From positions 133,869-197,868 of the forward strand of contig JBAZNJ010000001.1 in the NCBI GenBank assembly GCA_041649315.1: 64,000 bases of DNA, given 5' to 3'. Under the pieces are notes generated by a model that saw only the letters and a program-made list of their open reading frames with translations, searched no databases and was not told where the DNA came from. Below are positions 39,203-50,710 of this stretch, piece after piece (position 1 is the first letter of the stretch; each line of letters opens with the position of its first letter). A program made the translations under genes and the position numbers. The DNA comes from Patescibacteria group bacterium (GTDB taxonomy: Bacteria; Patescibacteriota; Patescibacteriia; Patescibacteriales; UBA12465).

Positions 39203-39445
39203 TTATTGCGGGTTGCCGGAATTTCCGGACTGTTCGGATGACGGGGCAGAAGAAGCGTTCGCAGATTGATTAAAAGGTTGGTCAGAGGGTTGAGACGGCA
39301 TTGAATTTGTCGGAGCGGCCACTTCTTTATCTTTATTTTCCTCGCCGTGTTCGCAACACTTATCACATTCATTACATTCACAATTTTTATCTTCTTCACC
39401 GCATTTGCACTTGCAACCAAAAAGCTTTTGTAACCAATTACACAT
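39203..39445 (-). CDS. Small cysteine-rich protein (metallothionein-like N-terminus, low-complexity tail)
   Basis: 80-aa ORF MCNWLQKLFGCKCKCGEEDKNCECNECDKCCEHG... with 9 Cys and 1 His in the first 34 residues. Has its own consensus promoter and terminator. Confidence 0.55.
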   Translation of the reverse strand: MCNWLQKLFGCKCKCGEEDKNCECNECDKCCEHGEENKDKEVAAPTNSMPSQPSDQPFNQSANASSAPSSEQSGNSGNPQ

Positions 39446-39482: not shown

Positions 39483-39511
39483 ATTATAGCATTTAAGGGT
39501 TTAAAGGTCAA
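39483..39511 (-). promoter_or_regulatory. Near-consensus promoter TTGACC-17-TATAAT for the Cys-rich gene
   Basis: Minus strand has TTGACC (39511-39506), a 17-nt spacer and TATAAT (39488-39483), about 38 nt upstream of the ATG. Confidence 0.6.
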
Positions 39512-39556: not shown

Positions 39557-40474
39557 CTAACGACGCAATAAAATCGTGAAATAACTAGTGGAACTGTCTA
39601 AACTACTGACTCCCATGGCCTCGGCCTGATTTTTATTATTAACTATTTCCAAATTCTCGGCGCCGGCTTGTCCAGTCGCCGTTAATACGGTCACAGCGGT
39701 CGCCGGCGAATCAATGTAATCATCATTAAACGAATATATCTTTTGATAATCGCGCGCGCCCAAGGCCTCTCGAGTTATCTCGTCATTAACTCGAGCCCGC
39801 TCGGTCGGGAGGTAATGAGAAAAATCGATTGAGGCGATAATGATTGTTTCTTGATTAAGATCAGCGGCTAAATATTCTCCTAGCGCTTTCGCCTGTTCTA
39901 ATGTTATCCGGTTATTTAATATAAGCGGCACGATTTCAGCTTCCGGGAAGCAATAGTTCACATAGGGGGTGATATTGGATATAGAATGCTCTGTGCTTAA
40001 ACGGCTGATATCGGAAACCGCGATTCCCTCTTTTATTATCCTAGCAACCATACCTTGATTGGAGTTAACTCGACCGTCGGGCAAATTATAGGCGATTGGC
40101 CCGGTGATGATATCGCCGGCACCCGTGTTTTCATGATTGGGCCCGACAATAATTACTCTTTTTATATTATAACGACAAATTTTTTGAAATAATTCCGCGC
40201 TATAATCAGCCGCCAAATCATGATGCGGCGCAATCAATCCTAAAACACCATTCTCGACAAACTCGGCTCCGGCAGGATATTTTTCAATCGCATCATAAAA
40301 AAGCGGCCAATTATAATTAACCGGAAAAATCGACTGCGCCACGACCGACGCCGCTGGCAGGGAATTATTTTTAATTTTATTTAATTTATCCATAACCCGC
40401 CAAACGCAAAAACTGGCAAATATAATTGCCAGTATTGCGCTAAAAAAAATTAATTTTTTCTTTTTATCCTTCAT
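39557..40474 (-). CDS. Membrane-anchored Memo-like protein (AmmeMemoRadiSam system protein B family-like)
   Basis: 305-aa ORF. N-terminal TM. LIAPHHDLAADYSAE, VIIVGPNHEN, TEHSISNITPYV and SIDFSHYL resemble Memo motifs. Confidence 0.6.
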   Translation of the reverse strand: MKDKKKKLIFFSAILAIIFASFCVWRVMDKLNKIKNNSLPAASVVAQSIFPVNYNWPLFYDAIEKYPAGAEFVENGVLGLIAPHHDLAADYSAELFQKICRYNIKRVIIVGPNHENTGAGDIITGPIAYNLPDGRVNSNQGMVARIIKEGIAVSDISRLSTEHSISNITPYVNYCFPEAEIVPLILNNRITLEQAKALGEYLAADLNQETIIIASIDFSHYLPTERARVNDEITREALGARDYQKIYSFNDDYIDSPATAVTVLTATGQAGAENLEIVNNKNQAEAMGVSSLDSSTSYFTILLRR

Positions 40475-40494: not shown

Positions 40495-43400
40495 TTACCG
40501 CTGATGAATTTCTATTTGTCCGGCGGATGAAAAACTTTTAAGGTCGGCGATTTTAACTGACTGGATCAACGCCGATTCGGCAATATACTTGCCCGGCTGG
40601 CTGATGCGCGCGAAATAGCTAAAATAATCCTTTTGGCAACGGGGGTCCTTATTCCAATTTTTATCAACGATGAATTTAACTTTCTGGCCGGAAACTTCAT
40701 AAGGATAGCGGATACCGCAATCAGCTTCAAGGCCATAACGATAAGTATTACTTATTAATTTTAAGCCGCTCGGTAAAATATCAGTAATTTCATAAAGTCC
40801 GTCCGGCGCCGTGCCAGAAAATCGCGATTTAATCCGAACTTCGACGATATCGCCTTCCTGAAAATCATTACTCAACTTCCCTTTATTCCAATAACTCCGT
40901 TCTAAACCGACTTCCTGGCTCTGTTTAGTTAAATCGGCTCTAGCGTCATAATCGCTAACCGCCGCTATCTGGCCGCTGATTACTTTTATTTCTAAGGTCG
41001 GCAACTGTTCGGGGCCGACCAGAAATTGAAAGGATTCGCCGCGTCCTAACGTTTTATTAATTTCTTGATTAGCAATCTTAAGGGAAAATTCAGCCTTACC
41101 GGACGGAATATTTGGAATCATTAATCGTAAATATAAGAGCTGTTCCAAATTACCAAGAATATCCGTCGGACGATTATCAACCACATAATTTCGGAAATTC
41201 TCTGCGCGATCATCGTCCAGCCCAGCCGCCAAGATAGCGGCTAAGACCGTGGCTAAAAAATTATCATCGTTATTTTTATCATTTATCTTAAGCCGCGAAT
41301 ACGCGTTAAATTTTTCGCCGTAAGCGGCTAACAATTCATCATATATCTTTTGCGCCAATTGATTATCGCCGATAAGCCGCGCGCCTAAAGCTAAATACAA
41401 TTTATCCAAAGGCCCAAGATCGGACAAGCGACTAAATTCGCGTAAAGAAATAAGCACCGGCTCATTAAGCGCGGCTAAACCGGACAAGGCCAAAGCTAAT
41501 TCATCGCGATTGGCGTCCCGATTATTATAAACACTATATAAATACCCGGCTAAAGCCTGGCTATCAAAGGCCTCCGGTTTAGCCATGGCTGCTAAAACAG
41601 AAATTCTTAAATCCGCGTCGGAATAAGGCAATAATGAGATGCCACCGGTCGCAGTCTGATATATTTTTAAGTCCGCGTCCGTTGGTTCGGTCGCGGCGCT
41701 AAAATATTCGTTCATTAAATCGGTCGCGATAAGCGCTGATAATTTCTGGTCAACTCGCGCCCCGTAGCCATGGCTTAAACCGAGCAATTCCGAATAATAG
41801 CGACCCCGATTATTATCCATCAGCGTAATCGTTGTCCAGCTATCCTCCGCGCCGGCAATCTTATCGCCGGTTTTAATTTCCGAAACGATCTGATGCCGTT
41901 CACTTAGTCGCGAATCAATAACGCTAATTTCATTAACAACGGTATCTTGATTATTTTGGGAAGCGGCGCCAATTTTTAATTTATAGGTCCCCGCGCTTAC
42001 TCGATTTAAGTTAAAATAAATCGGACGGAAAGCTTTCGCTTCCTGATCAACCCGTGCCGCGCCGAGCGCCGGCGCTTCAAGATAAGCCTGTATTTTATCC
42101 GCGGCAACCAAGTCATCGCCGTAAGCCGTCGCCTTAATTATCGGTTCATCGCCGGCCAAATATTGCTTGGATAAATTAGTCTCGACGAAAAATGGCAAAG
42201 TCGCTTTAAGCTGCGTTTTAGCAACGCCGGCTTCTAAGTCGCCGGAAATGCCCTGGACGCTCATCTGCCAAGAAGTAATATTGTCGGGCAGTTGGAATTT
42301 AACCGTCGCCCGGCCGCTCTGATCAGTTTCGACTTGAGTAAACAAAGCTAAATCCGGGAAATAAGAACGCTCTCCGCTCCCGCCGCCGCCTCTTTCCGCA
42401 CCGCCGCCTAATAGAACGTTCTTATGGGAATATTTACTAAAGAGATGGCCACTACTCAGTGCCCGATATAAACCGCTTAAAGGATCGGACTCGGGAATTC
42501 CACCTAAAGGTGCAAGGGCTAGATCAACGGCGCTAACATTAATACGGGCTCGGACATCTCGCCCCGCTTGATCTTTAACGGAAATATTCAAAGTCGCCTC
42601 ATCGCCGGGACGATACTCGTCCTTATCGGTCTTAATGGCGATATCTAACTTACGCTTCTCCTGATTAAAAAAGGCGCTAAACCCATTATCAGCATGATAA
42701 GTCCGCCCGTCAAACCAAGTGGCGACAACGTAAATATTCGGTATATCGTCGGCCGCATAATTAAAGCTAAATTTAGAACTATCGCTCACCTGATAATCAC
42801 GCAGACCATTTTGCAAACGTAAATATAAGAAACGACCGGCATCAGTAATTGTTTCCGTGCCATACCTTTTAACTTCAAGCTTAACCTTCTCATCAATATC
42901 ATAACTTTTCTTATACGGCGTTTCTTCAACCAGGTTATAGTAATCGAAGCGCGGATCATTTATCGACTGGGAAGCGTTAAAATATAAATTATCATTCGTT
43001 ATGTTATTATATTGATCGCCGGCCAGCAATTTTATTTCATAATAATATTTTGGATCAACGTCAAACACTAAACTACCGGTACCATCCGCGCCGGTGGCGA
43101 AAGATCGATCGGGCAAGGCCGTCTTTTTCTGATCGTAACGATAAATCGGATAAGAAACCTTATTAATGAAATCGTAATAAGTCCCGGTCTGACGTGGAAT
43201 ATATTCTATGGCCGTAATCTTAACAGTTACTACTTTGCCCGCCGCCGGCGCGCCATTCCAGTCATCCTCTGCTTTATTTAAATCAACATTAAACAATTCT
43301 GTTTTGATTTGGACTTTATTTTCTTGCCCAACCCGGTTAATACTCGCGTTATCAAAACGGATTCGCGTCCGGAAAACGCGAACATCGGCACTGCCGTAAA

Positions 43401-45639
43401 CCTCGCCGGCTTCGGATAATTTCGGTTTAACCGTTAATTCGTCTCGGCAAGTATCCCCACAAGAATCACCGCTACAAGAACAGGATGTCGTATATTTTAA
43501 ATTAACCGTGCCATTGCCATCCGTGGCCGCCATCTGGCCGTCCGAGACTGTTGGTGAATCACTGCTTTTATTATTATGTACAATCTCTAAATCATGGTTG
43601 ACTAAAGGCGTCCCCTCGAAAAAACTGGTTTTAATTTCGTAATTAACGCTATCTCCGGCAAAAACCGCTTGAGCACTCGGGGCTACTTTTATCTGATAGG
43701 CCGGCTTGATGTAATCTTGGACTATAATATAGCGGCCGGAATAAAGCTCCTTGTCATCAAGCCGAATATCAACCCGGTAATTGCGCGGGATTAAATTATT
43801 AAATTTCAAGCTGCCGATAAAAAACCCCTGGCTGTCAATTTTTGCTTTCTGTTCCACGACGATTATCGGCTCCTGATAAATATCCCAAAAACTATCATTG
43901 ACTAAGCGAACCGTGACTTCCTTATCGGCCGTGGCTACGACATCAGATCGCGACCGAACAAAACCCCAAAAATTTATTTCATCGGTCGGCTGGTATAAAT
44001 CGCGGTCGGTATATAAATAACTCCAATAATTATCCGGGTTGTTCGCGCCATCCGAACGATAATCCGGCGGAACGCTCACCACCAAATTCTTTCCGGCCGC
44101 TTCGATCAAAAATAGAGAAGTTTTCTCATCTTGATAATCAAATTTTAGAACGGCAACGCCACTGGCGTCGGCCGAAGCGCTAGTCTTAGTTCCTAAATTA
44201 CTAACTTTAGCCGGAGATTTTTTATCCAATCCGATGTCGTTAATCCAAAACAGTACCTCGTCGTTAATGACTGTCGTATAGGCGGAAACATCGCTCACCT
44301 GAACGAAAATCCAGCTATGATTATCGCCGATGGCCGCTTCGACCAGGTAGAAACCAGCCGGCAAGCGATTAGGCAAAACCAGATAATTTCCCCGATCATT
44401 ACTGGCCAGGGGCAGATTATAAGTGGCGGCTAAAGACAAACCGGAATAATTTATTTCCGCGCAACGACGAGCGCTGGCAGCCCAGCTCGGAATCTCGTAA
44501 TATTTTTCCAAAGCGGCCGTGAAAGCGTCTAAGCTCTGATAATTATAAACTTTAACAGCGGCTAATTGCTCTGCTTGTTTATTGCGGGCATAAACAGAAA
44601 AAGCCGGATTTTGTTCGGTGGCAAACTCAACTAAATCATCGGCAAAATTTATAGTCGTTGCCGGCGCTTCTTCTTCCCGGACTTCAAATTGAAAACGATA
44701 AGCTTCCGATAAATTTTCACCGGTCGCTAAATCGTTAACCGACGGCGCGACCGTTACAGTATAAAGCGTTCCGGGATTAAGCGACTGTTTCGGAACGAAA
44801 ACCATGGTCTGCCGGTGTTTCTCAAAAGCCCCTTCAACCGCCGGAGTAATATTAAAAGCCGTCTCAAAACCGGTAAAATTTTCCGTACTAAAATTTATCT
44901 CAATGCCGGTATTGGCCAGCGCGCTTGTCCGATCGGCCGGAAGCGAGCCGGTAATTTTAAATTTATTTTTTACCTGAAAGGCCCAAGAATAAAGATGATC
45001 GACCGTTAGGCCTTGATCGTTAACATAGGCGGAAGCGATAGTCAGGCGATAAACGACTTTATCCACTAACCCGTCTTTAGGAATTAATCTAAATTCGTAT
45101 TCATTAACCGCCGTTAAATCAAACTCCGTCGCCGGCGACAATTTAATATTAGCGCGCAGAGAATCAAGATCTTTAATCGCGGTTTTACTCTTAATAACAA
45201 AATGGGTATTGGCTTCAACGCCAAATTCACCCCCGGCCGTCGCTTCAACGGAAAAATTATCGCGCGCGTAGGCGGTCTCGACCGTAAACGGCGAAAATCC
45301 GCTTTGCGGCCAAAACTTAACCGCCGTGATAATAACGGCAAGTATCACCACTAAAGCCAGGGCCGGCGCTAAACGACGGACATTAAAGCGGGAAAACCAG
45401 GCCTCCCAGATTTTTGCAATTTTATCTTTCATAGAAAAAGTTTTGGCTTGGCGTCGCGCTAAAATTTCCATCCGCAAGCGGTCTTGGAAATCAACAGTCG
45501 GCGCTAAGTCCTTAGAAACGGAGCTCTTAATCTTGTCTCCTGCTTCTAATAACGCCGAAATCTCCGGATCATTACACTCCGACGGCGCTTGTCCGGCGGC
45601 TAAAGCGGCGGCTAATAATTTTGCTTTTTCTTTATTCAT
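40495..45639 (-). CDS. Anti-sigma-like N-terminus + TM + alpha-2-macroglobulin-like giant ectodomain (no thioester motif)
   Basis: Start taken at ATG 45639 (MNKEKAKLL), overlapping the sigma gene stop by 8 nt. TM LAPALALVVILAVIITAV. A2M hallmarks YTDRDLYQPTDEINFWGFV, DKDEYRPGDEATLNISV...VSAVDLAL and FPDLALFTQVETDQSGRATVKFQLPDNITSWQMSV. HGYGARVDQ stands where CGEQ is expected. Confidence 0.8.
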   Translation of the reverse strand: MNKEKAKLLAAALAAGQAPSECNDPEISALLEAGDKIKSSVSKDLAPTVDFQDRLRMEILARRQAKTFSMKDKIAKIWEAWFSRFNVRRLAPALALVVILAVIITAVKFWPQSGFSPFTVETAYARDNFSVEATAGGEFGVEANTHFVIKSKTAIKDLDSLRANIKLSPATEFDLTAVNEYEFRLIPKDGLVDKVVYRLTIASAYVNDQGLTVDHLYSWAFQVKNKFKITGSLPADRTSALANTGIEINFSTENFTGFETAFNITPAVEGAFEKHRQTMVFVPKQSLNPGTLYTVTVAPSVNDLATGENLSEAYRFQFEVREEEAPATTINFADDLVEFATEQNPAFSVYARNKQAEQLAAVKVYNYQSLDAFTAALEKYYEIPSWAASARRCAEINYSGLSLAATYNLPLASNDRGNYLVLPNRLPAGFYLVEAAIGDNHSWIFVQVSDVSAYTTVINDEVLFWINDIGLDKKSPAKVSNLGTKTSASADASGVAVLKFDYQDEKTSLFLIEAAGKNLVVSVPPDYRSDGANNPDNYWSYLYTDRDLYQPTDEINFWGFVRSRSDVVATADKEVTVRLVNDSFWDIYQEPIIVVEQKAKIDSQGFFIGSLKFNNLIPRNYRVDIRLDDKELYSGRYIIVQDYIKPAYQIKVAPSAQAVFAGDSVNYEIKTSFFEGTPLVNHDLEIVHNNKSSDSPTVSDGQMAATDGNGTVNLKYTTSCSCSGDSCGDTCRDELTVKPKLSEAGEVYGSADVRVFRTRIRFDNASINRVGQENKVQIKTELFNVDLNKAEDDWNGAPAAGKVVTVKITAIEYIPRQTGTYYDFINKVSYPIYRYDQKKTALPDRSFATGADGTGSLVFDVDPKYYYEIKLLAGDQYNNITNDNLYFNASQSINDPRFDYYNLVEETPYKKSYDIDEKVKLEVKRYGTETITDAGRFLYLRLQNGLRDYQVSDSSKFSFNYAADDIPNIYVVATWFDGRTYHADNGFSAFFNQEKRKLDIAIKTDKDEYRPGDEATLNISVKDQAGRDVRARINVSAVDLALAPLGGIPESDPLSGLYRALSSGHLFSKYSHKNVLLGGGAERGGGGSGERSYFPDLALFTQVETDQSGRATVKFQLPDNITSWQMSVQGISGDLEAGVAKTQLKATLPFFVETNLSKQYLAGDEPIIKATAYGDDLVAADKIQAYLEAPALGAARVDQEAKAFRPIYFNLNRVSAGTYKLKIGAASQNNQDTVVNEISVIDSRLSERHQIVSEIKTGDKIAGAEDSWTTITLMDNNRGRYYSELLGLSHGYGARVDQKLSALIATDLMNEYFSAATEPTDADLKIYQTATGGISLLPYSDADLRISVLAAMAKPEAFDSQALAGYLYSVYNNRDANRDELALALSGLAALNEPVLISLREFSRLSDLGPLDKLYLALGARLIGDNQLAQKIYDELLAAYGEKFNAYSRLKINDKNNDDNFLATVLAAILAAGLDDDRAENFRNYVVDNRPTDILGNLEQLLYLRLMIPNIPSGKAEFSLKIANQEINKTLGRGESFQFLVGPEQLPTLEIKVISGQIAAVSDYDARADLTKQSQEVGLERSYWNKGKLSNDFQEGDIVEVRIKSRFSGTAPDGLYEITDILPSGLKLISNTYRYGLEADCGIRYPYEVSGQKVKFIVDKNWNKDPRCQKDYFSYFARISQPGKYIAESALIQSVKIADLKSFSSAGQIEIHQR

Positions 45640-46201
45640 ATTTTTGATAGATTGCTCGAAAACGCTTAAGCGCGCGAAAAAGCCAAACTCCGACATTGTT
45701 CGGCTTAATGCCCAGGGATTGCGCGATTTCAATATTATCCAATTCGGCAAAAAATTTAAGCTGTAAAATCTGTTGATCGCGTGACGACAAACTGGCCATA
45801 GTTTTTTCTACAATAGCCCGATTAAGCGAGCGGATTGAATCGGCCTGCGGATCTTGGCATTCATCGCTCGGCTCAGTAATATTTTCAATGTTAACCGTCG
45901 CGCGCCGACCCTGACCGCGATAATAATCGATCAATTTATTATTAGCAATTCGATAAAGCCAAGCGGCGAAAGAATAATCGTTCTTCGGCCGAAAAGTCCT
46001 AAGATTCGTAAAAACTTTTAAAAAAATAGCGGAAACAATATCTTCCGCCGCTTCTTTTTGCCCGACCCGCTTTATAATAAAAAAATATATCTTCGGGAAA
46101 TAAAAATCATACAAGACCGCGAAAGAACGGTCATCGGTTTTAGCTTGTTCCACGATCATGTTTTCGTTTATTAATTTATCCGACAAAATTTGGCCTTCCA
46201 T
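45632..46201 (-). CDS. ECF-type sigma-70 family RNA polymerase sigma factor
   Basis: 189-aa ORF. Region 2 AAEDIVSAIFLKVF...FAAWLYRIANNKLIDYYRG and region 4 LSSRDQQILQLKFFAELDNIEIAQSLGIKPNNVGVWLFRALKRF. Confidence 0.9.
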   Translation of the reverse strand: MEGQILSDKLINENMIVEQAKTDDRSFAVLYDFYFPKIYFFIIKRVGQKEAAEDIVSAIFLKVFTNLRTFRPKNDYSFAAWLYRIANNKLIDYYRGQGRRATVNIENITEPSDECQDPQADSIRSLNRAIVEKTMASLSSRDQQILQLKFFAELDNIEIAQSLGIKPNNVGVWLFRALKRFRAIYQKYE

Positions 46202-46264
46202 ATATAATAACGATAAATAACCTTAAACATTACAACTTAATAGACTCTATTTCCATTAATAAGT

Positions 46265-49660: not shown

Positions 49661-50710
49661 TTATTCCTCATTTCCCTTGCTCCCCAGCTCCTCGCACAAT
49701 TCGACGCTAATTTCTTTCAGCGCTGCTTCTAACTCGGCGGTATTAACTATCTGACGGACCTTATTATGAATAGCAAAAGTGCCGCGATGCTTGGCCGTGA
49801 AAGTATCTTCCGGCAAATCAACGACTTTCGACTGTTTATCGCCAGCTAAAACCAGCCGCCCTCTCTTAATATAAGACTTCACTAAATTTATCACCGATTT
49901 ATCATCATAACTAGCCAACAAAGTTTTCAGGGCCTCCCGAACGCTGCCCATATCATCCTCGGAACGACGGAATTCTTCCGCGCCGATGTTGACTAAGAGT
50001 TCTAAAATATCAGTCGCCTTATTATTCTTTTCGCTGACCGTCGCGGCTTTGTCCTTATTAAAAACAATATCCGGCAGATTTAGAATCGGTTCGCTCACCC
50101 GACCGCCCTCTTGCTTCTTAAAAATAATATCGCCGCTCACTAATTCGCCAATAGCGCCATGCGCGTCATGAATCTGCCTTATATACTTGCCCGTTTCGGC
50201 CAGGGCCTGAAAACGATCCAAGTCTTTGACTTTCTCGCTATCAATTAAGTCAGAGCGATAGACATCCTGCAGTGGCACGCCATGACGGAATAAATCCTGG
50301 TCTTTTATCTCTATCCCTTTTTCATGCAGACCATAAGTATTTTCTAAGCCGAGGCGCTGGACATTCTCGAAAATTTCTTCCTTACTGCCGCGATATTTTT
50401 TCGCGCCCGGCGCCAAGAATTTGAAAAATAATCTCGGATCGCGGCGAAAGAAGGCGCCCATATCTTTCACGAGATGATCGTCGAAAGTCCGAAAGATAGC
50501 ATCGCCCCATTTGTCGATCTTAGAAACTAAGCCGGAATTATCCCAAACCATCTTACCCTCTTCCGTCTTCATCTTGCCGCCATAGACGCCGAGCGTACTC
50601 TTATAATCTTCATTCGGGAAACCGGACTCATACATCGTCTCGTTAATCTTGTCGGTCAATTTATCGACTTTAGGAGTAAATTTTTGAAACTCCGGATTTT
50701 CAAAGCTCAT
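49661..50710 (-). CDS. Hypothetical cytoplasmic protein, unknown function
   Basis: 349-aa ORF directly downstream of dnaK. No confident motif; HDAHGAIGELVSGDIIF only faintly recalls kinase-like catalytic loops. Confidence 0.5.
   Translation of the reverse strand: MSFENPEFQKFTPKVDKLTDKINETMYESGFPNEDYKSTLGVYGGKMKTEEGKMVWDNSGLVSKIDKWGDAIFRTFDDHLVKDMGAFFRRDPRLFFKFLAPGAKKYRGSKEEIFENVQRLGLENTYGLHEKGIEIKDQDLFRHGVPLQDVYRSDLIDSEKVKDLDRFQALAETGKYIRQIHDAHGAIGELVSGDIIFKKQEGGRVSEPILNLPDIVFNKDKAATVSEKNNKATDILELLVNIGAEEFRRSEDDMGSVREALKTLLASYDDKSVINLVKSYIKRGRLVLAGDKQSKVVDLPEDTFTAKHRGTFAIHNKVRQIVNTAELEAALKEISVELCEELGSKGNEE

What the first reader, a model, noticed from the sequence alone, without database searches (positions are those of the whole stretch)
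40495..46201. ECF sigma factor translationally coupled to a giant anti-sigma-like / alpha-2-macroglobulin-like fusion protein
Seen: the sigma ORF ends ...CAA AAA TAT GAA TAA and the next gene's ATG lies inside it, giving an 8-nt ATGAATAA overlap at 45632-45639. The downstream protein has about 95 cytoplasmic residues, one TM helix (LAPALALVVILAVIITAV), then about 1600 extracytoplasmic residues with Ig-like repeats and strings characteristic of MG2, bait-region and A2M domains. Established: ECF sigma genes are normally followed by a co-translated single-pass anti-sigma whose ectodomain is the sensor (RsgI anti-sigma-I factors carry carbohydrate-binding modules). Bacterial A2Ms are known as periplasmic protease traps, usually lipoproteins or part of mag-type operons, not signalling proteins. 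Inference: this may be a surface sensor in which protease attack or ligand capture on an A2M scaffold is relayed to a sigma factor. I do not know this arrangement as a described system.
Basis: partly seen in the sequence, partly recalled or inferred. Interest (0 to 1): 0.7.

Follow-up and report, generated by a model that had tools for sequence, protein, structure and literature searches.

The report
Sigma factor wired to macroglobulin-like sensor
A candidate-phyla bacterium carries a three-gene operon whose sigma factor appears to be held at the membrane by the tail of a 1,714-residue surface protein built like the protease trap alpha-2-macroglobulin, an arrangement that recurs in three phyla, was not found in the literature searched, and could show what bacterial macroglobulins respond to.

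Summary
An ECF sigma gene (45632-46201, minus strand) overlaps by 8 nt (ATGAATAA) a 1,714-aa gene (40495-45639). That protein has about 89 cytoplasmic residues, one TM helix (90-107), and an ectodomain that matches bacterial alpha-2-macroglobulins by Pfam and by fold across both modelled parts (105-1100, 1090-1714).

Comparative genomics supports the anti-sigma reading.
- All homologues with an anti-sigma-type N-terminus and readable upstream DNA (window + 17 genome loci + 6 metagenome contigs) have an ECF sigma gene directly upstream, usually with the same overlap.
- None of about 54 homologues lacking such a tail does.
- Two Firmicutes members carry a textbook zinc anti-sigma domain (zf-HC2), paired with a sigma only distantly similar to the window's.

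- The thioester is absent (invariant RxDQ).
- A membrane-anchored Memo-like gene (39557-40474) is a conserved third gene.
- An ECF-type promoter, GTAAT-N16-CGTTA, lies upstream of sigma.
- A second in-frame copy of that motif lies inside the anti-sigma coding region.
- Some homologues have a Hint self-cleaving domain inserted in the disordered Gly-rich bait-like loop.

Protease cleavage as the trigger is still inference. Verdict: a real, recurrent, apparently undescribed variant of ECF/anti-sigma signalling.

The parts
46208..46233 (-). ECF-type promoter motif GTAAT-N16-CGTTA. Its -10 element ends 6 nt before the sigma ATG, so the mRNA is probably leaderless or nearly so.
   Evidence: Only two exact matches exist in the 64 kb window, both in this operon. 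The same GTAAY-N16-CGTTW motif lies upstream of sigma in 14 related loci from CPR and Firmicutes.
45632..46201 (-). ECF (group IV) sigma factor gene, 189 aa
   Evidence: Sigma70_r2 and Sigma70_r4_2 hits. TIGR02937 sigma70-ECF scores 105.8 bits against a cut-off of 42.9. The best specific model is the BldN family, TIGR02952, at 131 bits, below its cut-off of 206. PDB sequence matches are SigW and BldN.
45632..45639 (-). 8-nt overlap ATGAATAA between the sigma stop codon and the start codon of the giant gene (translational coupling)
   Evidence: Read directly. The same overlap is conserved in 10 loci from three phyla.
40495..45639 (-). Gene for the 1,714-aa fusion protein: anti-sigma-like tail, TM helix, then a thioester-less A2M-like ectodomain
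45376..45639 (-). Cytoplasmic N-terminal segment, residues 1-88: the putative anti-sigma domain. Conserved core is L30 ... F51xxxL55.
   Evidence: Alignment A3. A tail of this type or a zf-HC2 tail co-occurs with an upstream sigma in every assessable case. No Pfam or PDB sequence match was found.
45550..45575 (-). Second, in-frame copy of the promoter motif, GTAATGATCCGGAGATTTCGGCGTTA, at codons 22-30 (C N D P E I S A L). Candidate internal sigma-dependent promoter.
   Evidence: It is present in L001, L081-L084, L067, L069 and L086, encoded by different amino acids (CN..AL versus RN..SL) but the same motif bases. Codons 22, 23, 25, 29 and 30 are identical in all six close relatives, against 14.7% of invariant-residue columns gene-wide.
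45430..45432 (-). Conserved internal Met70, inside the nucleotide-identical block TTTTCTATGAA. Possible start of an isoform lacking the anti-sigma domain.
   Evidence: the block is identical in 6 of 6 relatives. The sigma-less relatives P0004 and P0007 begin at exactly this position.
45319..45372 (-). Single TM helix, residues 90-107, preceded by RR
44683..44967 (-). Big_5 Ig-like domain, residues 225-319
42514..44019 (-). Span holding the MG2 hit (residues 541-592) and the A2M bait-region-domain hit (907-1042); part of the all-beta MG-type domain array modelled for residues 105-1100
   Evidence: AF2 model of residues 105-1100 has pLDDT 82.7. Best fold matches are ECAM 5a42 (E = 8.8e-31) and Salmonella A2M 4u48.
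42370..42408 (-). Gly-rich, predicted-disordered loop GGGAERGGGGSGE (residues 1078-1090), directly before the RSYFPD motif. This is the position equivalent to the A2M bait region and the C3 activation site.
   Evidence: pLDDT is 26-39 for protein residues 1077-1100. The loop is conserved in the family consensus. A Hint domain is inserted after residue 1085 in P0013, P0016 and P0020.
42124..42348 (-). A2M (MG7) domain, residues 1098-1172
   Evidence: PDB sequence hits are to human A2M.
41110..41814 (-). Helical (alpha/alpha) thioester-domain-like region, about residues 1276-1510. The thioester site is replaced by G-A-R-V-D-Q (1293-1298; coordinates 41746-41763).
   Evidence: AF2 model pLDDT 89.9 with helices H187-H421 of the fragment. 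Fold matches are ECAM and Salmonella A2M, MG7 to the C-terminus. R1295 is invariant in both family alignments (A1 and A2); D1297 and Q1298 are invariant in the 14-sequence alignment A2.
40498..41094 (-). C-terminal beta domains (second half of CUB plus an MG8/RBD-like domain), residues 1516-1714
39557..40474 (-). Third gene: membrane-anchored Memo-like protein (AmmeMemoRadiSam-B family), 305 aa. It starts 20 nt after the A2M stop codon and has an AAAGGA ribosome-binding site.
   Evidence: Pfam Memo 71 bits; TIGR04336 99.9 bits. A Memo-like gene follows the A2M-like gene in 44 of 69 genome loci, often with a 4-nt overlap, and in all 9 metagenome contigs. Sequence read.

Best explanation
This is a three-gene operon: ECF sigma, an anti-sigma::A2M-like fusion, and a Memo-like protein. 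It is driven by the sigma factor's own promoter (GTAAT-N16-CGTTA).

Proposed mechanism:
1. Sigma and the fusion protein are made in coupled translation.
2. The first 60-88 residues of the fusion bind sigma and hold it at the membrane. The conserved core is L30 and F51xxxL55.
3. Outside the cell, the fusion displays a complete but thioester-less bacterial-A2M-like body. It has a disordered Gly-rich loop at the bait position, next to a membrane-anchored Memo-like enzyme.
4. Cutting or rearrangement of the ectodomain destabilises the protein. The most likely event is cleavage of the bait-like loop by a foreign protease.
5. The membrane stub is removed and sigma is released.
6. Free sigma re-induces the operon. 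In CPR lineages it possibly also fires an internal promoter that makes A2M without the anti-sigma tail (from Met70) together with Memo.

Status of each step:
- Shown: gene order, the overlap, domain and fold identity, absence of the thioester, recurrence across phyla, the link between tail type and sigma presence, and the conserved promoter motifs.
- Inferred: sigma binding, the nature of the signal, regulated proteolysis, and the function of the internal promoter.
For: Anatomy:
- Gene order, overlap and domain hits.
- AF2 models of residues 105-1100 (pLDDT 82.7) and 1090-1714 (pLDDT 89.9) both match ECAM (5a42) and Salmonella A2M (4u48) best, with E-values from 1e-26 to 1e-31.

Linkage:
- Of 80 genome loci, 17 have an ECF sigma directly upstream on the same strand.
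- All 17 have the TM helix at residue 64 or later. No locus with the TM at residue 46 or earlier has a sigma.
- Six further metagenome contigs whose protein carries the tail all have sigma upstream and Memo downstream.
- The close relative P0007, which lacks the tail, has no sigma.
- The 8-nt or 4-nt overlap is conserved.

Independent fusion:
- L022 and L045 carry zf-HC2 with HxxxCxxC (32.5 and 28.5 bits against a gathering cut-off of 22.2).
- Their partner sigma is only distantly similar to the window's sigma.
- In a neighbour-joining tree of the ectodomain (alignment-based, no bootstrap), sigma-linked members are scattered within each phylum clade.

Autoregulation:
- The promoter motif is conserved upstream of sigma in CPR and Firmicutes loci.
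- It occurs in the 64 kb window only at this operon.

Bait loop:
- The loop is predicted disordered.
- It is conserved across the family.
- A Hint domain is inserted in it in three homologues.
Against: - No sequence or profile similarity of the window-type tail to any known anti-sigma domain.
- No complex prediction could be run.
- The thioester is absent and the 'bait' loop is conserved and Gly-rich rather than hypervariable. Both are atypical for a protease trap.
- The loop lies about 1,000 residues from the membrane. A cut there does not by itself create the short stub that site-2 proteases usually need.
- About 75% of family members work without any sigma, so signalling is not the core function of the ectodomain.
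- No site-2 protease was seen in the window by a crude motif search.
Confidence: 0.6

Rival explanations
1. The protein is a genuine sigma/anti-sigma pair, but the ectodomain does not sense proteases. It might instead report its own export, folding or integrity. It might bind a ligand such as cell-wall material or a host-cell surface; CPR bacteria are epibionts with many giant surface proteins. Sigma would then be released by a conformational or mechanical route, as in RsgI-type anti-sigma factors.
For: - There is no thioester.
- The bait-position loop is conserved rather than variable.
- The N-terminal ectodomain has Big_5/Ig-like domains.
- A conserved extracytoplasmic Memo-like enzyme partner, fused to PGA_cap in Uhrbacteria, points to chemistry on the envelope rather than protease trapping.
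- Large surface proteins of Patescibacteria are generally read as adhesion or host-interaction factors (PMC13059738).
Against: - The whole body is collinear with bacterial A2Ms, including the bait-region domain, CUB and TED.
- A self-cleaving Hint domain sits exactly in the loop in some homologues, which suggests that chain scission there matters.
- Thioester-less MagD still responds to elastase (PMC3735191).
Confidence: 0.27
2. The N-terminal tail is not an anti-sigma domain. Sigma is only a co-transcribed activator of an envelope operon, and the tail has another role such as membrane targeting or oligomerisation.
For: - The window-type tail has no hit to any anti-sigma family.
- Its conserved core is short, with three invariant residues.
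- In 1.84 billion representative proteins it is detected only on A2M-like proteins.
Against: - The tail and sigma co-occur without exception, and both are lost together in P0007.
- The stop-start overlap is conserved, as is typical for sigma/anti-sigma pairs.
- A second lineage uses a textbook zf-HC2 anti-sigma domain at the same position on the same ectodomain.
- The RsbN precedent shows that anti-sigma domains can lack any sequence similarity to others (PMC6101532).
Confidence: 0.08
3. The arrangement is an artefact: an assembly or gene-calling error that joins a small anti-sigma gene to a separate A2M gene.
For: The source is a metagenome-assembled genome. The mechanical ORF list gives a longer TTG-started ORF.
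Against: The same uninterrupted architecture is found in more than 20 independent assemblies from three phyla and from different sequencing projects.
Confidence: 0.01

Closest known systems
Membrane-bound ECF sigma/anti-sigma pairs released by regulated proteolysis (sigmaW-RsiW, sigmaE-RseA, sigmaV-RsiV)
   Same: - A two-domain ECF sigma with a co-transcribed, translationally coupled, single-pass anti-sigma (N-terminus inside the cell).
- An autoregulatory ECF-type promoter.
- An extracytoplasmic domain that acts as the sensor.
- L022 and L045 even carry the same zf-HC2 fold family as RsiW.
   Different: - The ectodomain is a roughly 1,600-residue A2M-like body rather than a small domain.
- The window-type tail has no detectable class I features (no HxxxCxxC, no Pfam hit).
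- The operon carries a Memo-like partner.
- The trigger and the proteases involved are unknown.
sigmaBldN-RsbN of Streptomyces (class III anti-sigma domain; PDB 6DXO)
   Same: - The window sigma's best specific NCBIfam model is the BldN family, and its region 2 matches BldN in the PDB at E = 1.4e-11.
- RsbN is also a single-pass protein with a cytoplasmic sigma-binding region of about 90 residues, no similarity to other anti-sigma factors, and a large ectodomain of unknown function (PMC6101532).
   Different: - The BldN-family score is below the family cut-off (131 against 206 bits).
- No sequence similarity between the tail and RsbN was detected.
- RsbN's ectodomain is 272 aa and is not A2M-like.
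- RsbN is reported to be limited to Streptomyces.
Anti-sigmaI factors RsgI of Clostridia and Bacilli
   Same: Conceptually the same: a large modular extracellular sensing domain fused to a cytoplasmic anti-sigma domain through one TM helix, in monoderm bacteria.
   Different: - The sigma here is ECF-type, not SigI-type.
- There is no RsgI_N domain.
- The sensor is A2M-like rather than a carbohydrate-binding module.
Bacterial alpha-2-macroglobulins of the ECAM/YfhM and Salmonella A2M type
   Same: - These are the best structural matches for both halves of the ectodomain.
- The domain order is the same: MG array, bait-region domain, MG7, CUB, TED, C-terminal MG8.
   Different: - The CxEQ thioester is replaced by RxDQ (R invariant family-wide).
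- The anchor is a TM helix rather than a lipobox.
- The hosts are monoderm or CPR bacteria rather than Gram-negative bacteria with a periplasm.
- The neighbour is Memo-like rather than pbpC.
- Sequence identity is only 13-15%.
MagD (PA4489) / YfaS-type thioester-less bacterial A2M of the magABCDEF operon
   Same: - It lacks the thioester cysteine.
- It is associated with the membrane and works with operon-encoded partners.
- It still changes conformation on elastase treatment (PMC3735191).
   Different: - No mag-type partner genes are present.
- Membrane association is direct, through the protein's own TM helix.
- It is coupled to a sigma factor and to a Memo-like protein.

Membership tests
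ECF (group IV) sigma-70 factors | Only the sigma2 and sigma4 domains are present, in a protein of about 170-220 aa | tested here: met
   Sigma70_r2 at 31-100 and Sigma70_r4_2 at 130-180 in a 189-aa protein. TIGR02937 scores 105.8 bits against a cut-off of 42.9.
ECF (group IV) sigma-70 factors | A cognate regulator is encoded next to sigma, and sigma has an autoregulated promoter with an AAC-type -35 and a CGT-type -10 element | tested here: met
   The downstream gene overlaps sigma by 8 nt. GTAAT-N16-CGTTA lies upstream and is conserved in 14 related loci. Promoter activity itself was not tested.
BldN family (TIGR02952) ECF sigma | Score above the family's curated cut-off | tested here: not met
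   131.5 bits against a cut-off of 206.45. It is the best-scoring specific model only.
Class I / zinc-binding anti-sigma domain (zf-HC2, RsiW/ChrR/RslA type) | An N-terminal helical domain with the HxxxCxxC motif, or a Pfam zf-HC2/RskA hit | tested here: not met
   The window tail has one Cys (C22), no His-Cys motif and no Pfam hit. The feature IS met by the homologues L022 and L045 (zf-HC2 at 32.5 and 28.5 bits).
Anti-sigma factors in general | Encoded directly after, and co-translated with, the partner sigma; single-pass with the sigma-binding part in the cytoplasm | tested here: met
   The overlap is conserved. The TM helix is at 90-107 with RR on the N-terminal side. Tail and sigma co-occur in all 24 assessable cases, and sigma is absent from about 54 homologues lacking an anti-sigma-type tail.
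Anti-sigma factors in general | Physical binding to, and inhibition of, the partner sigma | not testable with these tools
Class III anti-sigma domain (RsbN) | Three helices, with a long alpha3 clamped between sigma2 and sigma4; sequence homology to RsbN | tested here: inconclusive
   A profile of 18 tails found no anti-sigma chain in the PDB. The helical layout was not modelled.
Alpha-2-macroglobulin / thioester-protein superfamily | An array of MG domains plus a bait-region domain and MG7 | tested here: met
   Pfam MG2, A2M_BRD and A2M hits are above cut-off. The all-beta model of residues 105-1100 matches ECAM and Salmonella A2M over about 950 columns.
Alpha-2-macroglobulin / thioester-protein superfamily | CUB-TED insertion and a C-terminal MG8/RBD domain | tested here: met
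   The model of residues 1090-1714 has pLDDT 89.9. Top hits are 5a42, 4u48 and 4ziu (ECAM, MG7 to the C-terminus) at E = 4e-27 to 4e-26.
Alpha-2-macroglobulin / thioester-protein superfamily | The thioester motif CxEQ in the TED | tested here: not met
   The site reads G-A-R-V-D-Q (1293-1298). R1295 is invariant across the 37-sequence family alignment; D1297 and Q1298 are invariant in the 14-sequence alignment A2.
Alpha-2-macroglobulin / thioester-protein superfamily | An exposed, protease-sensitive bait region before MG7 | tested here: inconclusive
   A disordered loop (pLDDT below 40) is present at the right position. It is short, Gly-rich and conserved rather than variable. Cleavage was not tested.
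ECAM/YfhM-type bacterial A2M | A lipoprotein anchor (lipobox Cys) and a neighbouring pbpC gene | tested here: not met
   The anchor is a TM helix. The neighbours are sigma and a Memo-like gene.
MagD/YfaS-type bacterial A2M | Embedded in a six-gene mag-like operon | tested here: not met
   Only sigma and the Memo-like gene are conserved neighbours.
Memo / AmmeMemoRadiSam system protein B (third gene) | Profile match above the cut-off | tested here: met
   PF01875 scores 71 bits (cut-off 27) and TIGR04336 scores 99.9 bits (cut-off 26). No AMMECR1 or radical-SAM partner genes were seen nearby, so membership of that three-gene system is not supported.

The most novel reading that the evidence does not exclude
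This would be a self-renewing 'sacrificial bait' defence circuit in monoderm and candidate-phyla bacteria. A foreign protease cuts the exposed loop of the membrane-anchored, thioester-less macroglobulin. That damage is relayed through the protein's own anti-sigma tail to release an ECF sigma. Sigma then fires both the operon promoter and an internal promoter embedded in the anti-sigma coding sequence. The cell would thereby produce tail-less macroglobulin (from Met70) plus its Memo-like partner without re-titrating sigma. In some lineages a Hint domain inserted in the same loop would make the cut, and possibly a reactive thioester, autonomously.
Probability: 0.22. Interest if true: 0.88.

Novelty: new variant of a known kind. 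Interest (0 to 1): 0.7.

Why it matters
The role of bacterial alpha-2-macroglobulins in living cells is still largely inferred from structure. A version wired to a sigma factor gives a transcriptional read-out of whatever activates the macroglobulin body, which can be tested with a reporter.

It would also do the following.
- Add a new sensor class, a protease-trap scaffold, to ECF signalling.
- Show that an A2M-like plus Memo-like surface module is widespread in Firmicutes, Chloroflexota and Patescibacteria, groups outside the Gram-negative bacteria in which bacterial A2Ms have been characterised.
- Give a rare example of a regulated stress response in genome-reduced CPR bacteria.

The promoter motif inside the coding sequence and the Hint insertion in the bait loop each raise a specific, testable mechanistic question.

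Tried and rejected
- A 37-sequence alignment (A1) was too diverse for the search for related loci. A 14-sequence alignment (A2) worked.
- Pfam and NCBIfam scans of the window-type tail found no anti-sigma family. The only match was DUF4020 at 19.6 bits, below its cut-off, and I regard it as spurious. A profile of 18 tails against PDB sequences returned only chance hits.
- phmmer of residues 1-88 against 1.84 billion representative proteins found 4 hits, all A2M-like relatives. This tail type could therefore not be shown on any other kind of ectodomain.
- Literature searches for anti-sigma plus macroglobulin, and for Memo plus macroglobulin, found nothing relevant. The ECF reclassification paper's main text has no mention, and its supplement is not held.
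- Loci with apparently long N-termini but no sigma (L007, L009, L010, L013, L039, L053, L054) were checked. Most are over-extended ORF calls in GC-rich genomes, or tails without the anti-sigma motif. L006 has the motif, but its upstream DNA is cut off.
- A crude regex for a site-2 protease (HExxH plus LDG) in the window's ORFs found nothing. This says little about the whole genome.
- My first assumption that GCG and CCG are rare codons here was wrong: GCG is 37% of Ala codons and CCG is 68% of Pro codons. The argument for the internal promoter therefore rests on the empirical six-genome codon test and on the cross-clade pattern, not on codon rarity.
- No consistent alternative downstream partner was found in loci that lack the Memo-like gene.


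Full report
**1. Observation**

The window comes from a Patescibacteria (CPR) metagenome-assembled genome. The giant protein is 100% identical to a 1,714-aa NCBI protein named 'alpha-2-macroglobulin family protein', on a 377-kb contig.

The sigma ORF runs 46201 to 45632 on the minus strand and ends TAT GAA TAA. The ATG at 45639 sits inside that ending and is in frame with the ORF that stops at 40495. The 8-nt overlap ATGAATAA at 45632-45639 is therefore real.

Sigma has Sigma70_r2 and Sigma70_r4_2 domains and passes the general ECF model TIGR02937. Its best specific model, the BldN family, is below cut-off at 131 against 206 bits.

The giant protein has about 89 cytoplasmic residues, a TM helix at residues 90-107 preceded by RR, and then about 1,600 residues outside the membrane. 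These carry Big_5, MG2, A2M_BRD and A2M Pfam hits, all above their gathering cut-offs.

**2. What the ectodomain is**

AlphaFold2 models were built with 33-sequence alignments.
- Residues 105-1100 gave pLDDT 82.7.
- Residues 1090-1714 gave pLDDT 89.9.

Foldseek against the PDB puts E. coli ECAM (5a42) and Salmonella A2M (4u48) first for both halves. E-values are 8.8e-31 and 4.3e-27, and complement C3, C4, C5 and TEP1 follow. The modelled ectodomain is therefore collinear with a bacterial alpha-2-macroglobulin: MG array, bait-region domain, MG7, CUB, an alpha/alpha thioester-type domain, and MG8.

Three things differ from the textbook protein.
- **The thioester is gone.** The site reads G-A-R-V-D-Q (1293-1298). 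R1295 is invariant in a 37-sequence family alignment, and D1297 and Q1298 are invariant in the 14-sequence alignment A2.
- **The bait-position loop is unusual.** Just before the conserved RSYFPD...PDNITSW motif lies a short Gly-rich stretch, GGGAERGGGGSGE (1078-1090). It is predicted to be disordered (pLDDT 26-39), but it is conserved in the family rather than hypervariable.
- **The anchor is different.** It is a TM helix, not a lipobox.

**3. Does the sigma-fusion pair recur?**

A scan of one genome per species returned more than 531 relatives. The best 80 loci come from Patescibacteria, Chloroflexota (Dehalococcoidia, Limnocylindria) and many Firmicutes (Peptococcaceae, Gracilibacter, Desulfitobacterium, Acetivibrio and others), so this family lives in monoderm-type bacteria.

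An iterated HMM search for sigma in all ORFs of these loci gave the following.
- An ECF sigma lies directly upstream on the same strand in 17 loci. That is about a quarter of the roughly 70 loci with enough upstream DNA.
- All 17 have the first TM helix at residue 64 or later.
- No locus with the TM helix at residue 46 or earlier has a sigma.

Apparent exceptions, with a long N-terminus and no sigma, were checked. They are over-extended ORF calls or tails without the conserved motif. L006 has the motif, but its upstream DNA is missing.

Metagenome contigs agree.
- Six contigs whose protein carries the tail all show sigma, A2M-like gene and Memo-like gene in that order. They are P0003, P0005, P0008, P0010, P0013, P0016 and P0035 minus any without assessable upstream, and they sit in unrelated flanking contexts.
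- The 55%-identical relative P0007 lacks both tail and sigma, and starts at the equivalent of Met70.

The stop-start overlap is conserved.
- ATGnnTAA or ATGnnTGA occurs in L001, L011, L015, L016, L017, L021, L024, L034, L040 and L069.
- ATGA occurs in L022 and L045.

**4. Is the tail an anti-sigma domain?**

The window-type tail has no Pfam, NCBIfam or PDB-sequence match. Its conserved core is short: L30 and F51xxxL55 are invariant in 18 sequences from three phyla.

Two points make the anti-sigma reading strong all the same.
- The co-occurrence with sigma described above has no exception.
- L022 and L045 (Bacillota) carry a bona fide zf-HC2 domain with HxxxCxxC on the same ectodomain family, scoring 32.5 and 28.5 bits against a cut-off of 22.2. 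They are paired with a sigma only distantly similar to the window's (E about 1e-4).

Two unrelated sigma-binding modules have thus been fused to this ectodomain. RsbN shows that anti-sigma domains can be unrecognisable by sequence (PMC6101532).

In a neighbour-joining tree of the ectodomain (alignment-based, no bootstrap), sigma-linked members are scattered among sigma-less ones within each phylum clade. This points to repeated loss or gain of the sigma-plus-tail module.

**5.

*(a) A third gene.* The gene at 39557-40474 encodes a membrane-anchored Memo-like protein (PF01875 at 71 bits; TIGR04336 at 99.9 bits). It starts 20 nt after the A2M stop codon.
- A Memo-like gene follows the A2M-like gene in 44 of 69 genome loci, often with a 4-nt overlap. 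This includes 11 of 14 sigma-linked loci. It also follows in every metagenome contig examined.
- In the Uhrbacteria loci it is fused to a PGA_cap domain.
- The conserved core of the system is therefore the A2M-like plus Memo-like pair. Sigma and the tail are an add-on.

*(b) A promoter.* GTAAT-N16-CGTTA lies at 46233-46208, and its -10 element ends 6 nt before the sigma ATG. The same GTAAY-N16-CGTTW motif sits upstream of sigma in 14 related loci from both CPR and Firmicutes. The Firmicutes loci add a leader with a GGAGG ribosome-binding site.

*(c) A second copy of the motif.* In the whole 64-kb window the motif occurs only twice. The second copy is in frame, inside the tail's coding sequence at 45575-45550, covering codons 22-30.
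- This internal copy is present in eight other CPR loci.
- It is encoded by different amino acids in different clades: C-N...A-L as TGT AAT...GCG TTA, against R-N...S-L as CGT AAT...TCG TTA or TTG. The motif bases are kept.
- Across six close relatives, only 57 of 388 invariant-residue columns (14.7%) keep an identical codon. Codons 22, 23, 25, 29 and 30 all do.
- Synonymous conservation is raised over the whole first 70 codons (13 of 23 columns). This includes an identical TTTTCTATGAA block around Met70.
- This is consistent with an internal sigma-dependent promoter and an internal start that would give a tail-less isoform. It is not proof.

*(d) A Hint insertion.* In P0013, P0016 and P0020 a Hint domain of about 130 residues is inserted after residue 1085, inside the Gly-rich loop. 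It has a Cys at position 1, a TxxH block in P0016 and P0020, and a terminal HN followed by Asp. This suggests that breaking the chain at this loop is part of how the protein works.

**6. Mechanism**

*Shown:*
- an autoregulatory-looking operon;
- coupled translation of sigma and the fusion protein;
- a complete but thioester-less A2M body with a flexible loop at the bait position;
- an extracytoplasmic Memo-like partner.

*Inferred:*
- the tail sequesters sigma;
- cleavage or rearrangement of the ectodomain releases sigma;
- sigma re-induces the operon.

I favour protease attack on the loop as the signal, at about 35-40% on its own. The reasons are that the scaffold is a protease-trap fold, that thioester-less MagD still reacts to elastase (PMC3735191), and that a self-cleaving Hint domain occupies the same loop in some homologues. 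The main rival is that the ectodomain senses something else, such as its own integrity, a ligand, or contact with a host cell.

Weak points are these.
- The loop is about 1,000 residues from the membrane.
- No regulated-proteolysis protease was identified.
- Most family members work without sigma.

**7. Comparison and novelty**

The system works like a membrane-bound ECF/anti-sigma pair and, in concept, like RsgI-type sensors.
- The sigma is a member of the ECF family.
- The ectodomain belongs to the A2M/TEP superfamily by fold, but it fails the thioester, lipobox and pbpC criteria of ECAM-type proteins and the operon criterion of MagD-type proteins.

No paper in the searchable library links anti-sigma factors with macroglobulin domains, or Memo with bacterial A2M. 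The supplement of the ECF reclassification paper could not be read, so a passing mention in a table cannot be excluded.

I rate this as a new variant of a known kind, with interest 0.7.

Noticed in passing
window 39557-40474 (-): A membrane-anchored Memo-like (AmmeMemoRadiSam-B family) gene lies directly after the A2M-like gene. The pairing is conserved in 44 of 69 related genome loci and in all metagenome contigs examined, with or without sigma. No AMMECR1 or radical-SAM partner is nearby, and no literature on an A2M-Memo pairing was found.
   Followed up: yes
window 45550-45575 (-); also L001 2704-2729, L081 6122-6147, L082 and L083 4065-4090, L084 4116-4141, L067 5924-5949, L069 6008-6033, L086 3029-3054: A second, in-frame copy of the sigma promoter motif GTAAT-N16-CGTTA lies inside the anti-sigma coding region. 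The motif bases are kept although the encoded residues differ between clades (CN..AL versus RN..SL). It may be an internal sigma-dependent promoter that gives a tail-less isoform starting at the conserved Met70 (45430-45432).
   Followed up: partly
homologues P0013, P0016 (L086 3001-8541) and P0020; position equivalent to window 42370-42408: A Hint / mini-intein-like domain of about 130 aa (PT-HINT; begins CF[LA][AS]GT, ends HN followed by Asp) is inserted after residue 1085, exactly in the Gly-rich bait-position loop of the A2M-like protein. The +1 residue is Asp, so self-cleavage rather than splicing seems likely. P0012, P0015, P0022 and P0033 also carry Hint Pfam hits.
   Followed up: partly
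window 46199-46233 (-): The -10 element CGTTA ends 6 nt before the sigma ATG, with no Shine-Dalgarno sequence between them. The same 6-nt spacing is seen in L001, L041, L081, L083 and L084. The sigma mRNA is probably leaderless in these CPR genomes, whereas the Firmicutes orthologues have a GGAGG leader.
   Followed up: partly
L067 11174-12949 and L069 11123-13024: In the Uhrbacteria loci the Memo-like partner is fused to a PGA_cap (CapA-like) domain (PF09587, 220 bits). This hints at envelope-polymer chemistry.
   Followed up: no
window 43447-43482 (-), protein residues 720-731: A Cys cluster, C-S-C-S-G-D-S-C-G-D-T-C, lies in the middle of the MG array and is partly conserved in the close clade (consensus CxC...CxD). 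Its role is unknown; it could bind metal or form disulfides.
   Followed up: no
window 39483-39511 (-): A near-consensus sigma-70 promoter with an extended -10 (TTGACC-N17-TGcTATAAT) lies just after the Memo stop codon. It marks the end of the operon and the start of the next unit, a small 80-aa ORF at 39203-39445 with no Pfam hit.
   Followed up: no
window 49661-50710 (-): A 349-aa ORF between a GH1-like gene and dnaK has no Pfam hit at E <= 0.01.
   Followed up: no
window 1-64000: GC skew is negative in every 2-kb bin, and all ORFs of 100 aa or more inspected between 31.6 and 53.4 kb that look like genes are on the minus strand. The inspected region appears to lie within one replichore with strong gene-strand bias.
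   Followed up: no
L001, L003, L013, L046 (record titles): Contigs labelled 'uncultured Gammaproteobacteria' carry close relatives (up to 53% identity) of this CPR protein and the CPR-type operon. The MAG taxonomy labels are probably wrong, through mis-binning.
   Followed up: no
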